Below are positions 1,870 to 37,345 of a stretch of 42,708 nt of DNA, piece after piece. The translations under genes and the position numbers were made by a program. The DNA is from Eledone cirrhosa (Eukaryota). The notes beneath the pieces were generated by a model. The model saw only the letters and a list, made by a program, of their open reading frames with translations, searched no databases and was not told where the DNA came from. The DNA is taken from NCBI GenBank assembly GCA_964016885.1, contig CAXHJY010001161.1, positions 1-42,708 on the forward strand. Reading direction: 5' to 3'. Position 1 is the first letter of the stretch. Each line of letters opens with the position of its first letter.

Positions 1870-2077
1870 TTGGGATACAACAAGCAAATATTTTTATAAC
1901 TGTATAAAAGCACTCGACAAGTATTTGGAGTATATATACGATATTAACAAATGGAAACTATATTTATAAATATGGTTTTATAAATATAGTTTCCATTTGT
2001 TAATATCGTATATATACTCCAAATACTTGTCGAGTGCTTTATATCAGTTATAAAAATATTTGCTTGTTGTATCCCAA
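1870..2077. mobile_element. Fold-back inverted repeat (about 101-bp arms, 6-nt loop), PLE terminal-repeat (pLTR) fragment
   Basis: 1870-1970 is the near-exact reverse complement of 1977-2077. It is homologous to the sequence 3' of the hammerhead at 31736-31800 and is followed by (TA)n. Confidence 0.75.
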
Positions 2078-2261
2078 CAATTTAAATAGAACTTTTGCAT
2101 ATATATATATATATATATGTTTAATATAGAAAAACTTCTACTGTTTCATTCGTGAGAAATCATCAGGAAGCTGACTGTCCAAGTAAATATGGTGGTATTT
2201 ATACCTTTTCTGGTGGTAGGAGAGGGTGGAGATTGGGATGGGTGGGGATATATATATACAT

Positions 2262-2575
2262 GTGTGTGTGTGTGTGTGTGTGTGTGTGTGTGTGTGTGTG
2301 TGTGTGTGTGTGTGTGTGTGTGTGTGTGTGTGTGTGTGTGTGTGTGTGTGTGTGTGTGTGTGTGTGTGTGTGTGTGCGTGCGTGTGTGTTTATTAATCAA
2401 CAGAGTGACATACATATTTACCTGTTGATGTCTGAATTCCATTGAAAGAGTCTTGCTTTCTCTCTATCGGCGAAAATATATAAAATAACAAAACCAGAAA
2501 AACATACATACATACACACACACGTACATACATACATACATACATACATACATACATACATACATACATACATAC
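2262..2575. repeat. (GT)n and (CATA)n microsatellites
   Basis: Direct reading. Confidence 0.95.
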
Positions 2576-4196
2576 AGCTTATCAATTTACTGAATAGTAA
2601 TAAATTCTGATTGCTTAACGTTATTGGAGAAGCCATTTTCTATTAACACTAGCATCCATTTTGTTTTTACTTTTCTAAGCAGAAAGGACATTTAATTCAA
2701 GCTAAATACGTATAGATCCTAATTAATTATGAATCTAAAATCGGTAAGAATTTCTGGTTAACTCTTTTTGGCTGTCTACTTAAAGATTTATGTCATTTAT
2801 TTGTATTCTTTATAGTTCAGTCGTAAATAATTATTCACAAAATATGTTTGTCTTTATATTATCATCTGCATCAGTCTTTTCTCTTCTTTTCTTTTCTTTT
2901 TTACCATGGCTTCTATATCCCAAGGCACGGCAATATCAGAAACCATTTTAGTTAAATCATTTCTAAATTCAGATGTAATTATAATTTTAAGAAGAAATTA
3001 AAATAGATTTCGCTCATTTCTTCGCTCTTTCGACAAACTTGTAATGTTCTCAAAATATTTACTTAAAAGTAGAACATTTTTGATTAAAAATACAAACGAG
3101 GTTACTTGGTTACCTGTTCTAATGATGTTAACCTTGCATAAATTTTGTTTTGGGTCGTCTTCATTTACATTTATGGGGAATATTTAGAGCGTTGGATAGA
3201 ATACGTTGTGGTATTTGTTCCTGCGCTTTATGTTCTGAGTTCAAATCCCACCAAAACCATTTTTGTTTTTCATCCTTCCGGAATCGATAAAAAAAATCAG
3301 TCGGGTAATGGGGTTCTTCTAACTTCTTCTTCATCGTCTTCCTTCTCCTCTTTTTATTATTTCTTCTTCTTCTTCTTTTTCTTCTCTTTTCTTTTTCTTT
3401 TTCTTTTTCTTTTTCTTTTCTTCTTCTTCTCCTTCTTCTTGAAGAAAATAATTGGCGAAAGCGATACTTGGAGACTACAATATTGGAACGGAGATGGTTG
3501 TAAGATAAGGGAGAGTACTTCTTCTGGAGTTGATACAATATATTGTATACCGTTCCCACCACTAACCCCTAAAATTGCTGGCCTTGTACCTAAATTAAAA
3601 ATCATTGTTACTATTATTCAATATTTCGTTAATATATTTTTCGAAAAATGTTAATAAATGAGCAATGTTAATCAATAATCTTTTTTTTTTCCCCTCATAG
3701 TTTAATCCTTCCTCCCCTGCATCAAATACTCTCGAGGATTACTGCAAAAAAAAATGTTTTAAAAAATTGGAAGATGAGAAACAAAAACCTAATCTCAGCC
3801 GCTACTAATCTGTACAATCAGTAAATTTTATATCTTACACACTACCCTCACTACACAACACTCTAATGAACCGCTCCTCTCTGAACCAGAGGAATTCCAC
3901 TTCTACCCTCATCCCCCTCACTACATTCAACTCTTCCTTGGGTCCTATATTATTTTAATTTATTGTTTGCTTTCGTGTTTGTTTCTGCAACCGAACAGAC
4001 AAATATTTGTCTTAACAAAGAAGGATTTTTTTAATCTGTAAAATAAATACCAATCTTAAGTTTGTGTATCAACAGTAATGGAAATATTAAAGAAAGTTGA
4101 ATATTATATGATTAGTACAAAAAAATATATGTTTAATAGCTTTGAATTGGCAGAATTGTTAGAATGTTGAATAGAATTCTTTATTGTATGGAAGAA

Positions 4197-4352
4197 GAAT
4201 CGACCCCAGTACTGGACTGGTACTTTTTTTATCGACTTTAATAGGACGAAAGGTAAAGTTGACCTCGGCTGGTTTTGAACTTATATCGCAGAGAGCCAAA
4301 ACGAAAACAGAAATGGATTCTGTCCAATATTCTAACCACTCTGCCAATTCAC
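4197..4352 (-). mobile_element. tRNA-derived SINE, diverged copy
   Basis: Reverse strand has an A box (TGGCAGAGTGG), a B-box-like GTTCAAAACC and the core CTTTACCTTTCGTCC..GTCGATAAA..GTACCAG shared with the other SINE copies. Confidence 0.8.
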
Positions 4353-4521
4353 CATTCTAGAAATATTAGACGTTAACACAAATATAAAATTGAGATTTGA
4401 GTGTGTTGAATACTCTGCTAATTAGAAACTATATAATATTTAGTGTAATATTTTTAAATTAATATAGCAATGTTTACAATTTGTAAGGCATGTCAGAATT
4501 TCTTTTTTTAATTGGTCTTCA

Positions 4522-34579: not shown

Positions 34580-34581
34580 AT

Positions 34582-36172
34582 CATTACTGATAAGAAAAAA
34601 ATCAAAATTTATTCAGTTTGATATTGATGAATATTATTCCTCAATTTCACCTGATACTCTACATGAAGCTCTTTCGTTCGCTAAGGATAATTCCGACCTT
34701 ACGGATGCTGAAATTAAAATTATTATGGAAGCGAGAAAAACTATAGTTAAATTCGATGATAGCTACTGGGTTCGCAAAGATAGACCTTCTAATTTTGATA
34801 TCACTATGGGTTCTAATGATTCGGCGGAGGTAACAGATCTTGTGGGAATTTATATCACCCACAGATTACAAGGAAAATTCAAGGATCTCCACGGTGGAAT
34901 TTACCGTGACGATGCGCTCCTATTAGTTAAGAATATGAATAACCAGAATTTAGAAAGGATGCGTAAAAATATCAGAAAACTTTTTAAAGAACTAGGATTA
35001 AATATTACATTTGAATATAACCTCAAAGAGGTCAATTTCCTTGATGTTACTTTCAATCTCAATACAGATACGATTAAACCGTTCCATAAACTAAATGAGA
35101 ACCTTAAATATGTAAATACGAGTTCTAACCATCCACTCTCTATAATTAAATCCATCCCTAGAAATGTTTCTCTTAGAATCTCCCGCCTATCGTCCAACCA
35201 ACAAACCTTCAAAGAACATGCCGAGTATTATGATGATGCACTTAGGAAAGCCGGTCACCTAGATAATATAGAGTATATAGTCAATGATCACCAAAACACC
35301 CAAAATAAATCACATAGGAGTAGAAATAGCACAGAATCACCACCATACATACACTACCGCAATAGACACAATAATAGTCGCACACCACCAAACAGAAGGC
35401 GATGTAAGGAGTATATCTGGTACAACCCGGTCTATAACAAATCTATTAAAACCAATCTACCCTCAAAATTCTTTCGATTAGTTAGAAAACACTTTCCAAC
35501 ATCACATAAATATAATAAAATCTTAAACCCTAACACCATCCGACTTTCATATTCAACCGCCCCTAATATTGAACAACATATAAAAATGCTTAACGCAAAA
35601 CGGTTATATAAACGCCTTCCAACACATAACAATACACGTAAAACATTAGCTATAACATCACAAAACAACAAACAACATCCTGTTCTACATAAGCAACCTC
35701 ATCAACCCATCCATGGCAATACAACAACGCAAAATTGTAATTGCAACTGTGTCCAACCAGGAATGTGTCGTTGAACAACCAGTGTCTTGAACGCAACATC
35801 GTATACAAATGTACTATCGAATCGGATAGACAGAAGTGGTACTATGTGGGATCTACAGCCACCTCCTTTAAATCACGCCTTTATAGACATCGTTATTCGA
35901 TAAAACATGAAAACCAGCGTTATGTAACAACACTCGCAGACAAGGCTTGGCAGCTGCGTGAAAATAACCAACAATTTCACCTAAAATGGGATATAATAGC
36001 GACTGCCCCCCCATATTCCAATGGACAGGAATTTTGTAGATTATGTAATGTAGAATTATTTTGTATTATGAAATCCAAAAACATTTTATTAAATAACAGA
36101 ATAGAGCGATCGTTATACTGTAACCATCGCTTAAAATCTACATTTTCATATTATAAATACTACCAGGATTGA
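34582..36172 (+). pseudogene. Mirror copy of the Penelope-like ORF with two 1-bp indels
   Basis: Matches the minus-strand copy apart from an extra A in the run at about 34595-34601 and a missing C at about 35769, which splits ORFs 34725-35774 and 35741-36172. Confidence 0.88.
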
Positions 36173-36645
36173 ACGCCTGTCTCTATCCCCGTTTGATTGT
36201 CAAAATAGATATGAACATTCTTTATTAGTCTTAATTCTATCAACTCTTCTATTATTTACCTTTTAATACAAACTGCTATAGATAAAATGAGATTTCTGAT
36301 TTTTTGATTCAATTCCCTAGAGCAAATACCAGCTGACCACTAGCATTGATGTTATTTAGTAGCAATCGAAATCTCCCCCTTCCCCAATTGACACTTTATG
36401 ATTAATACTACTGCACCAAATGACCAGCCCTGTCCACTGTCCAGTTGGTCAAGTAGAGATTAAAATCGGCACCCCCAAAATTCTTATTTAGATTTACTCA
36501 TGGTATTCTCATTAAAAACCCATTATATACTTGTTTAGCAGTAAATTATTTTACCATCTGTCATATTCTATCCCCTCTGTTCCTTCCTCTTTTACTAATA
36601 TAAATACTTCAATTTTTCTGATTTTATCCAGTTTATCCAAAATCT

Positions 36646-36754
36646 CTGAAGAAGTGACAACTGATTATACATTTGCTATCGAATACTTGCTAACATTATA
36701 TGATTACGCAAGCAGCGATACATAGGTATTCGGTCTGTTACAGAAACATATGTC
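36646..36754 (+). ncRNA. Hammerhead-like core in the PLE 3' terminal repeat (mirror at 32397-32505, minus strand)
   Basis: CTGAAGA-A-GTGACA...TGTTAC-A-GAAA-CATATG-TC. Loop III is palindromic, but stem I pairing is poor. Confidence 0.5.
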
Positions 36755-36974
36755 AATACCTAATAAATTCCTTTTTTAACAAAAGCACTTTCATTTTATA
36801 TTCATCCTTTCTACATTTCTCCGGAATATAATTTATACTCGTTGAGCAAACCTGCACGTACGCTGTTCATCTCTAACGTAACGATATATTATCACTACAT
36901 TATTGATAACCTGAAATTTATATATATATATATATATATATATATATATATATATATATATATATATATAATAT

Positions 36975-37345
36975 ACGTGGGAAAGTAAAAAATCGGAGAA
37001 TAGACCGTTAAAACATGTTTATTTAAAATATCACCTACGTACGTTTCGCCCAGTTGGGCTTCTCAAGCCATAAGGAACACTTGTGATTATTTATGCCCTT
37101 GAGAAGCCGAACTGGGCGAAACGTACGTAGGTGATATTTTAAATAAACATGTTTTAACGGTCTATTCTCCGATTTTTTACTTTCCCACGTGCTTACGCTC
37201 TGCTAACTCTCTAGCCCACTAAATATTAACACTTCGAATATTTAATACTGCCGGCACTAGTATAGAGCACCTTTGGCATACGCTACTTGGCAAATAACTA
37301 TATGTATCACCTATCCCTCCTTTTTCTCTCTTTCTCGATACGTAA
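36975..37345. mobile_element. Fold-back PLE-like element (93-bp arms) with U3-A8 hammerhead
   Basis: Arms 36975-37067 and 37098-37190. TTGAGAA-GCC(C/G)AACTGGGC-GAAA-CGTACG-TA-GG at 37099-37131. A 3' extension follows, then (TA)n. Confidence 0.8.

What the first reader, a model, noticed from the sequence alone, without database searches (positions are those of the whole stretch)
1870..37345. Many hammerhead-carrying, non-coding fold-back elements from different families colonising (TA)n tracts
Seen: about a dozen type I hammerhead motifs (5480, 10662, 14831, 16669, 19579, 23163, 24000/25502, 29182/29287, 30487, 31736, 36646, 37099) in roughly nine distinct sequence families. Most lie in or beside inverted repeats with 50-250-bp arms next to (TA)n. 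Established: Penelope-like elements carry minimal type I hammerheads with a palindromic loop III in their terminal repeats and often have inverted termini. Inference: these islands are non-autonomous or heavily truncated PLE / retrozyme-like elements mobilised by RT + GIY-YIG proteins like the one at 32979-34579. That would be roughly one ribozyme motif per 3-4 kb, invisible to ORF-based annotation. I cannot tell whether these families are already catalogued.
Basis: partly seen in the sequence, partly recalled or inferred. Interest (0 to 1): 0.9.

Follow-up and report, generated by a model that had tools for sequence, protein, structure and literature searches.

The report
Hammerhead-bearing ends of Penelope retrotransposons
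These short fold-back islands are the truncated tail ends of many Penelope-like retrotransposon families, plus one protein-free tandem relative, each carrying a predicted self-cleaving hammerhead RNA; this is a known kind of element, but this animal genome likely holds about 300,000 such motifs.

Summary
The hammerheads are real. All read outward into (TA)n. But most islands are not non-autonomous families: longer copies of 10 of 13 short families join an RT+GIY-YIG ORF 0.3-3 kb upstream (8 Hydra-like, 2 others), so they are 5'-truncated 3' ends of ordinary Penelope-like elements. One family (23168) is a 593-bp non-coding head-to-tail unit that never joined an ORF (0 of 30 loci), i.e. retrozyme-like; two remain open. 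The window's ORF belongs to a very young Hydra-clade family with many stop-free 781-aa frames, and its hammerhead lacks helix I. Random sampling gives 65 motifs in 600 kb against 4.2 in shuffles, about 3x10^5 genome-wide (2.0-4.2x10^5). Fold-backs pair one short-ended arm with one tail-bearing arm in 161 of 171 classifiable cases, which suggests priming from both target strands on one RNA. Hammerheads in Penelope ends, inverted truncated copies, tails and (TA)n targeting are published. Scale, the pairing rule and the retrozyme family are the additions. Cleavage and expression are untested.

The parts
32340..36918 (.). Fold-back insertion of a young Hydra-clade Penelope-like element (my label F12); both arms 5'-truncated; left arm ends at end A, right arm carries the 102-nt tail (end B); (TA)n on both sides
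   Evidence: (99.8% self-inverted)
32979..34580 (-). 533-aa C-terminal part of the 781-aa RT+GIY-YIG frame; the mirror copy 34551-36172 (+) has a one-base frameshift
36646..36752 (+). F12 hammerhead-like motif: both core boxes, long helix II, palindromic helix III, GUC, but no helix I; mirror copy with core at 32505 (-)
1870..2091 (.). Fold-back of the F1 3' end, truncated downstream of the ribozyme (no hammerhead)
5436..5582 (-). F9 3' end, hammerhead core at 5569, long helix II; family joins a Hydra-like endonuclease domain about 1.9 kb upstream
10231..10415 (.). F7-related fold-back holding only the 3' half of the ribozyme
10453..10760 (.). F2 fold-back, hammerhead core at 10668 (+); family lies 1.2 kb behind a Hydra-like ORF in L322 and L308
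14740..14877 (-). F3-related 3' end, minimal hammerhead, core at 14862
15153..15455 (+).
16257..16417 (+).
16545..16876 (.). F6 fold-back, variant core CUGA-NN-GA at 16674 (+); its tail is split by a LINE fragment and resumes near 17445-17465
19535..19689 (+). F3 3' end, minimal hammerhead, core at 19583; family joins a Neptune-like ORF about 0.5 kb upstream
23036..23492 (.). F8 fold-back, U3-A8 hammerhead core at 23168 (+); truncated copy of a 593-bp non-coding head-to-tail unit (retrozyme-like)
23515..23715 (.). F13 fold-back whose inversion centre cuts the ribozyme; the family core has A at position 4; second fragment at 30838-30968; ORF link not found
23908..25609 (.). F7 fold-back (arms 23988-24229 and 25368-25609, tail to 23908), decayed cores at 24090 (-) and 25507 (+); family joins a Hydra-like ORF about 0.8 kb upstream
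29028..29479 (.). F4 fold-back, hammerhead cores at 29220 (-) and 29291 (+); family joins an RT+GIY-YIG ORF of another PLE type (clade not tested)
30440..30840 (-). F11 3' end, decayed hammerhead without helix I; family lies 1.3 kb behind a Hydra-like ORF in L297
31608..32068 (.). F1 fold-back, hammerhead core at 31792 (-), partial mirror at 32031 cut by a SINE; family joins a Hydra-like ORF through a 1.5-kb AT-rich UTR
36976..37345 (.). F5 fold-back, U3-A8 core at 37099 (+) with 2-bp helix I; mirror at 37066; family joins a Hydra-like ORF about 0.3 kb upstream

Best explanation
The islands are the 3' ends of about a dozen Penelope-like retrotransposon families, each with a predicted type I hammerhead ribozyme shortly before its end, that lie in TA repeats and were likely written there by target-primed reverse transcription that stopped early. 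Shown here: every motif reads outward into a microsatellite; copies have fixed 3' ends and ragged 5' ends; 10 of 13 short families join an RT+GIY-YIG ORF; each of 8 families examined has two preferred 3' ends (A, and B after a 67-165-nt tail); fold-backs nearly always pair an A arm with a B arm. Inferred: the element protein nicks (TA)n on both strands, one DNA end primes reverse transcription at internal site A and the other at site B of the same RNA, and the two unfinished cDNAs are joined head to head, giving the inverted repeat. Because the ribozyme lies 20-85 nt upstream of end A, almost any insertion longer than about 150 nt copies it, which explains the density without any host function. 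Inferred from the literature: the ribozyme cuts tandem precursor RNA, mostly as a dimer through its palindromic helix III or with protein help; in single truncated copies it is probably a passenger. The 23168 family is likely a non-autonomous derivative: a 593-nt unit that would be cut to monomers and copied in trans by a Hydra-clade protein.
For: Enrichment over shuffles. Helix I tested without selecting for it: 11 of 29 distinct C3-G8 candidates pair 4 bp or more, against 1.1 in permutations, 0 of 2000 reaching 11. F4 alignment: 93.7% of 252 cells paired, 20 cells with changes on both sides, 0 of 500 shuffles as high. 40 of 46 sampled motifs lie within 250 nt upstream of a microsatellite, against 32% of random positions. 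ORF in register upstream: F3 1 of 30 loci, confirmed in L307; F7 8 of 30, F4 4 of 30, F5 15 of 30; F1 1 of 2, F10 2 of 4, F6 1 of 2 extended loci; F9 21 of 30 loci found with its upstream end; F2 2 loci of 24 hits, F11 1 locus of 12 hits. Hydra motifs RWK, DKT, CxCx5C, CxxC and CxH all present. A/B pairing 161 AB, 5 AA, 5 BB; 28 further pairs unclassifiable. F8: 22 of 30 loci show a head-to-tail junction, 0 of 30 join an ORF, longest stop-free frame 85 aa; older copies at 70-78% identity cover the same unit; circular fold z = -5.7 against 40 shuffles. PMC11167929 shows two internal RT start sites bounding the tail, and cleavage and extension of both strands, for a Poseidon element in vitro.
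Against: No cleavage or RNA data. For the U3-A8 class the selection-free helix I test was weak: 2 of 17, reached by 69 of 2000 permutations. In one search the two measures that count pairs or pair types were not above shuffles (336 and 500 of 500), and the double changes come from two related subfamilies. The ORF links of F1, F3, F6 and F11 rest on one locus each; chance nesting is possible there, although no TA run separates F11 or F2 from the ORF. [quoted passage not shown] The F8 search returned near-identical copies only, so a rare ORF-bearing parent could be missed.
Confidence: 0.85

Rival explanations
1. Most islands are autonomous-independent mini-elements (retrozymes or SINE-like units) that spread in their own right using proteins like the one at 32979-34579.
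For: F8 fits. Short copies far outnumber long ones: 1458 first-look candidates for the F9 3' end against 129 for its upstream part. L080 holds an internally deleted F1 unit (terminal repeat, ORF start, 3' UTR). F13 and F14 have no ORF link yet.
Against: 5' ends are ragged, not fixed, in the families examined, and 10 of 13 families run into their own ORF.
Confidence: 0.1
2. The fold-backs form by snap-back of a single cDNA onto itself, second-strand synthesis from the hairpin, and an endonuclease cut at site A, not by priming from both target strands.
For: It also predicts one A arm and one B arm. Centres are often short loops with overlap (39 nt between the F12 arms; F1 centres). PMC8557442 attributes the tail to endonuclease resolution of an intermediate.
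Against: Non-inverted insertions also end at A (for example F8 loci L263, L264, L267, L290), and PMC11167929 maps both tail boundaries as RT start sites in vitro.
Confidence: 0.3
3. The inverted repeats are MITE-like DNA transposons or long-read fold-back artefacts, and the hammerheads are chance.
For: The F12 arms are 99.8% identical and the window is a whole unplaced contig.
Against: Arms are asymmetric in a family-specific way; older fold-backs have diverged arms (69-95%); the same structures lie on chromosome-scale contigs; motif counts far exceed shuffles.
Confidence: 0.03

Closest known systems
Hydra clade of Penelope-like elements (Craig et al. 2021, PMC8557442)
   Same: C-terminal GIY-YIG, RWK, DKT, CxCx5C, CxxC and CxH motifs; (TA)n targeting; 5' truncation; inverted 5'-truncated copy; tail at one end; hammerhead in the terminal repeat; reported from molluscs.
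   Different: Tails here are 67-165 nt, not 30-40; 3' UTRs reach 2-3 kb; helix II is often extended to 50-100 nt; the youngest family lacks helix I, whereas the paper calls canonical hammerheads universal in the clade.
Minimal hammerheads of metazoan PLEs (Cervera and de la Pena 2014, PMC4209133)
   Same: Type I, palindromic helix III, extra base after A9, U3-A8 covariant, many families per genome, mostly single or opposite-strand pairs 100-700 bp apart read as truncated PLEs, a 2-bp helix I variant as in Drosophila virilis.
   Different: Counts there are about 2,000-9,000 per genome; the estimate here is about 3x10^5, with a different descriptor.
Metazoan non-LTR retrozymes (PMC7229834; bioRxiv 10.64898/2026.07.22.740005)
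   Same: F8 is a non-coding head-to-tail repeat with one type I hammerhead per unit and a strongly self-paired predicted circle; PLE origin and mobilisation are proposed in both papers.
   Different: F8 units (593 bp) form only short runs (up to about 3 units seen), insert at (TA)n with 5' truncation, fold-backs and A/B ends exactly like the Hydra elements, and carry a U3-A8 core with long helix II; no circular RNA shown.
Poseidon element of Anolis (Frangieh et al. 2024, PMC11167929)
   Same: Two internal RT start sites that bound the tail; AT-rich target; both strands cut and extended.
   Different: Other clade; there the ribozyme overlaps the ORF start; the paper's parts that I read give no count of how ends pair in inverted insertions.

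Membership tests
Type I hammerhead ribozyme | Core boxes CUGANGA (or U3-A8) and GAAA, NUH triplet, helices I-III in type I order | tested here: met
Type I hammerhead ribozyme | Helix I, for motifs 30487 and 36646/32505 | tested here: not met
   No helix I pairing in 38 F12 copies or in F11 copies; hammerhead-like only
Type I hammerhead ribozyme | Helices supported by sequence variation | tested here: met
   Selection-free helix I test 11 of 29 vs 1.1; F4 double changes 20 cells vs 6.6; weak for U3-A8 class
Type I hammerhead ribozyme | Self-cleavage | not testable with these tools
   Needs in vitro assay
Penelope-like element, Hydra clade (F12) | Single ORF with RT and C-terminal GIY-YIG | tested here: met
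   781-aa frame with YRDD at 359 and Y.C...YVG at 660; Pfam scan of the 532-aa piece found 0 families
Penelope-like element, Hydra clade (F12) | RWK, DKT, CxCx5C, CxxC, CxH motifs | tested here: met
   All five present as defined in PMC8557442 section 11
Penelope-like element, Hydra clade (F12) | Pseudo-LTR by partial tandem, inverted truncated copy, tail, (TA)n target | tested here: met
Penelope-like element, Hydra clade (F12) | Placement in the clade by phylogeny against reference elements | not tested
   No reference Hydra sequences held
Penelope-like element, Hydra clade (F12) | Canonical hammerhead in the terminal repeat | tested here: not met
   Only the helix-I-less motif at 36646 was found in the 3' region
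5'-truncated PLE 3' ends (F1-F7, F9-F11) | Fixed 3' end, ragged 5' end, continuity with an RT+EN ORF | tested here: met
   one locus only for F1, F3, F6, F11
Non-LTR retrozyme (F8) | Non-coding head-to-tail repeat with a type I hammerhead in each unit | tested here: met
   22 of 30 loci with junction, longest frame 85 aa; junction also in 4 of 4 public runs laid
Non-LTR retrozyme (F8) | No link to an autonomous ORF | tested here: inconclusive
   0 of 30 loci, 0 of 3 extended loci, 0 of 3 older copies; search biased to close copies
Non-LTR retrozyme (F8) | Expressed as circular RNA | not testable with these tools
   No RNA holder listed

The most novel reading that the evidence does not exclude
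This genome carries the largest load of hammerhead ribozymes reported for an animal (about 3x10^5, one per 10 kb), made by currently active Hydra-clade elements that integrate by twin priming of both target strands at two RNA sites, and these elements mobilise a new (TA)n-targeting 593-nt circular retrozyme that shares their short cis motif just past end A.
Probability: 0.3. Interest if true: 0.7.

Novelty: new member of a known kind. Interest (0 to 1): 0.42.

Why it matters
The kind of element is known, so the biology is not a surprise. Three things are useful. First, the scale: the estimate exceeds the counts in the papers read (9,000 in Xenopus, more than 6,000 in a coral, about 5,000 in a mussel, up to 120,000 in axolotl), and a 2026 curated octopus repeat annotation does not mention ribozymes. 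Second, the near-strict A/B pairing of fold-back arms is a quantitative constraint on the open question of how Penelope-like elements integrate. Third, a young Hydra family with stop-free 781-aa frames and a matching non-coding passenger would let one test directly whether PLE proteins mobilise retrozymes, and whether the ribozyme is needed, since this family's motif lacks helix I.

Tried and rejected
Rfam scan: no hammerhead among the 150 rows shown; the miRNA rows are hairpin and microsatellite noise far below their gathering scores. Pfam: 0 families for the PLE piece and for the 1146-aa host ORF. Sequencing runs for F8: no RNA holder listed; contigs of four runs of unknown kind show the head-to-tail joint, which says nothing on expression. 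Non-circular permutation as an explanation of the F12 motif: considered after reading the abstract and introduction of PMC10085705; rejected by my own reasoning, because the 8-bp partner of the 3' strand lies inside loop II and is not contiguous with the first core box. Single-sequence folding: only 16335 folds into the full three-helix form; 10668 and 23168 keep helix I and part of helix II; 31792, 36646 and 16674 do not; z-scores 0.1 to -2.4, not decisive. Autonomous partner for F8 among older relatives: 0 of 3 loci had a PLE protein hit. Earlier findings of the scan: nothing returned. Dfam and Repbase are not available, so whether the families are catalogued is open. The dimer-cleavage paper PMC5785218 was not held; it is known to me only from a review passage. 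Supplements of PMC8557442 (family lists, hammerhead tables) were not read and may include cephalopod Hydra families. A fourth random batch could not be fetched, so the density rests on 60 stretches.
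Full report
Setting. The window is the whole unplaced contig C1188 of a 2.996-Gb assembly with 1796 contigs, 32% GC, rich in microsatellites. I take the animal to be a cephalopod, probably an octopod; this rests on a recalled resemblance of the abundant SINE and on one named homologue from Argonauta among 120 listed relatives of the element protein, and was not tested further. 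Family labels F1-F14 are mine.

Observation. A type I descriptor (helix I - CUGANGA or UUGANAA - helix II - GAAA - helix III - UH - helix I') gave 6, 6, 8 and 11 hits at four settings against 0.02, 0.11, 0.32 and 1.05 in 100 shuffles each; no shuffle reached the observed count. Two passing motifs were missed (15271, 16335). Structure support that does not depend on selecting for pairing: among candidates chosen only by core boxes and a palindrome in 400 kb of random DNA, 11 of 29 distinct C3-G8 flank pairs form a helix I of 4 bp or more against 1.1 expected (0 of 2000 permutations); the U3-A8 class gave 2 of 17 (69 of 2000). On 21 F4-type sequences (21 of 23 found; two cut by an inversion junction were left out) 93.7% of 252 cells pair and 20 cells change on both sides (0 of 500 shuffles), but the pair-count and type-count measures were not above shuffles.

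Polarity. Every motif reads outward from the centre of its island into a microsatellite, the same polarity as the ORF-bearing element at 32340-36918. In the random sample 40 of 46 motifs with a downstream microsatellite have it within 250 nt (median 86), against 32% of random positions.

The ORF element. It is a 4.5-kb fold-back, 99.8% self-complementary. A search with its protein scored 81 of 93,968 candidates and returned 82 matches at 94-100% identity, many in stop-free 781-aa frames. Of 20 loci examined, 8 hold the 781-782-aa frame, and in those a copy of the 3' UTR ends just before the frame, forming a pseudo-LTR. The protein has RWK, DKT, YRDD, CxCx5C, a GIY-YIG-type motif, CxxC and CxH, the features given for the Hydra clade in PMC8557442 (section 11 read whole; passages), which also reports (TA)n insertion, inverted 5'-truncated copies and a 30-40-bp tail at one end.

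Do the short families join ORFs? For eight families I fetched the 30 best genomic copies with 1.5-kb flanks, then 20 longer stretches. F3 (19583, 14862): fixed 3' end, ragged 5' ends; 1 of 30 reaches an RT thumb, zinc linker and GIY-YIG, Neptune-like by my recollection of the motifs, confirmed in L307. F7 8 of 30, F5 15 of 30 (Hydra-like) and F4 4 of 30 (another PLE type) reach an ORF in register (F4 confirmed in L301-L303). F1, F10 and F6 showed no complete link by tblastn within 1.5 kb but did in 1 of 2, 2 of 4 and 1 of 2 extended loci, through UTRs of 1.5-3 kb. F9 showed none in 30 loci or in 2 extended loci; a second search with the upstream end of its shared 2 kb found a Hydra-like endonuclease domain directly upstream in 21 of 30 loci. 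F2 and F11 were not searched separately; among held loci they lie 1.2-1.3 kb behind a Hydra-like ORF end with no TA run between in 2 of 24 and 1 of 12 hits; F13 (79 hits) and F14 (5 hits) gave no clean link. So 10 of 13 short families are truncated ends of protein-coding PLEs.

The exception. F8 (23168) is a 593-bp unit. 22 of 30 loci (20 of 28 distinct insertions) show a head-to-tail junction, runs reach about three units, none joins an ORF, and the longest stop-free frame is 85 aa. Copies met by chance, including three at 70-78% identity, cover the same unit and have no PLE protein hit. The unit folds as a circle at z = -5.7. The junction is present in contigs of 4 of 4 public runs laid, of unknown kind. 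This matches the definition of non-LTR retrozymes in PMC7229834 (passages) and bioRxiv 10.64898/2026.07.22.740005 (parts 1-3 of 5 read), where only 1 of 9 tested dimers cleaved. F8 inserts as the Hydra elements do, and all 8 of 8 families examined, F8 included, have CTCYR within about 10 nt past end A; this motif was noticed after the fact and has no formal control.

Two ends and the pairing rule. Each of 8 families has two preferred 3' ends, A and B, 67-165 nt apart; A lies about 20-85 nt after the predicted cleavage site, so insertions do not end at the ribozyme cut. Of 199 fold-backs, 161 pair A with B, 5 are AA, 5 BB and 28 have an unclassifiable end; against an even chance p is about 1e-36, though related or nested copies are not fully independent. 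PMC11167929 (parts 1-2 of 4 read) shows for a Poseidon element that reverse transcription starts at two internal sites bounding the tail, that both target strands are cut and extended, that the ribozyme cleaves only with protein, and that cleavage is not needed for insertion in vitro. I therefore infer twin priming on one RNA, with snap-back and endonuclease resolution as the rival.

Scale. PLE ORF matches cover 17,163 of 400,000 bases. Published counts seen: about 2,000 plus 1,300 minimal motifs in Schistosoma besides thousands of canonical ones, 4,000 in coelacanth, 9,000 in Xenopus (PMC4209133, parts 1-2 of 4); more than 6,000 in Acropora, about 5,000 in Mytilus, up to 120,000 in axolotl. 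Descriptors differ, so the comparison is rough; density in Schistosoma may be similar (recalled). A curated Octopus vulgaris repeat annotation lists 31 recently active Penelope-like families and has no occurrence of 'ribozyme' or 'hammerhead' in its main text (PMC13282606, part 1 of 3 and a term search). Searches for hammerhead with octopus or cephalopod listed no paper on cephalopod hammerheads; subscription journals, Dfam and Repbase were out of reach.

Verdict. The islands are in the main the debris of many ordinary PLE families, a pattern in print since 2014. What is added is the scale, a near-strict rule for the two ends of fold-backs, variant ribozymes (one without helix I in the youngest family), and one retrozyme-like family with Hydra-type insertion marks. 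New members of a known kind; interest 0.42.

Noticed in passing
window 4522-4810 (-): Full-length metazoan SRP RNA gene, 200.7 bits against a gathering score of 70.
   Followed up: no
window 6318-9758 (-): Single-exon 1146-aa host ORF with a long Gln/His-rich repeat region; its N-terminus resembles RASSF9/10 Ras-association proteins by recollection; Pfam found 0 families.
   Followed up: partly
window 9976-10154, 19861-20045, 24616-24813, 27807-28002, 28180-28293, 32067-32189, 40956-42281: About a dozen copies of one SINE family, recalled as a tRNA-derived CORE-type SINE.
   Followed up: no
window 15808-16200: Short element with 28-33-bp terminal inverted repeats in TA, mariner-like by recollection; no hammerhead.
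   Followed up: no
window 16877-17444 (-): LINE 3' fragment (DUF6451 hit) inserted into the tail of F6 with an 8-bp duplicated site.
   Followed up: partly
window 31816-32007: Centre of the F1 fold-back is a nest of 20-bp direct and inverted repeats, suggesting repeated template switching at the junction.
   Followed up: no
window 36738-36758: In F12 the strand after the GUC triplet can pair over 8 bp with a segment inside loop II instead of forming helix I; unexplained, possibly an off-state fold.
   Followed up: partly
L080:130-1710 (oriented to the F1 sense strand): Internally deleted F1 unit: terminal repeat, about 190 codons of ORF start, then 3' UTR and hammerhead.
   Followed up: no
window 21150-21190 (+): Decayed hammerhead of a subfamily related to F4, with compensatory changes in helix II.
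   Followed up: partly
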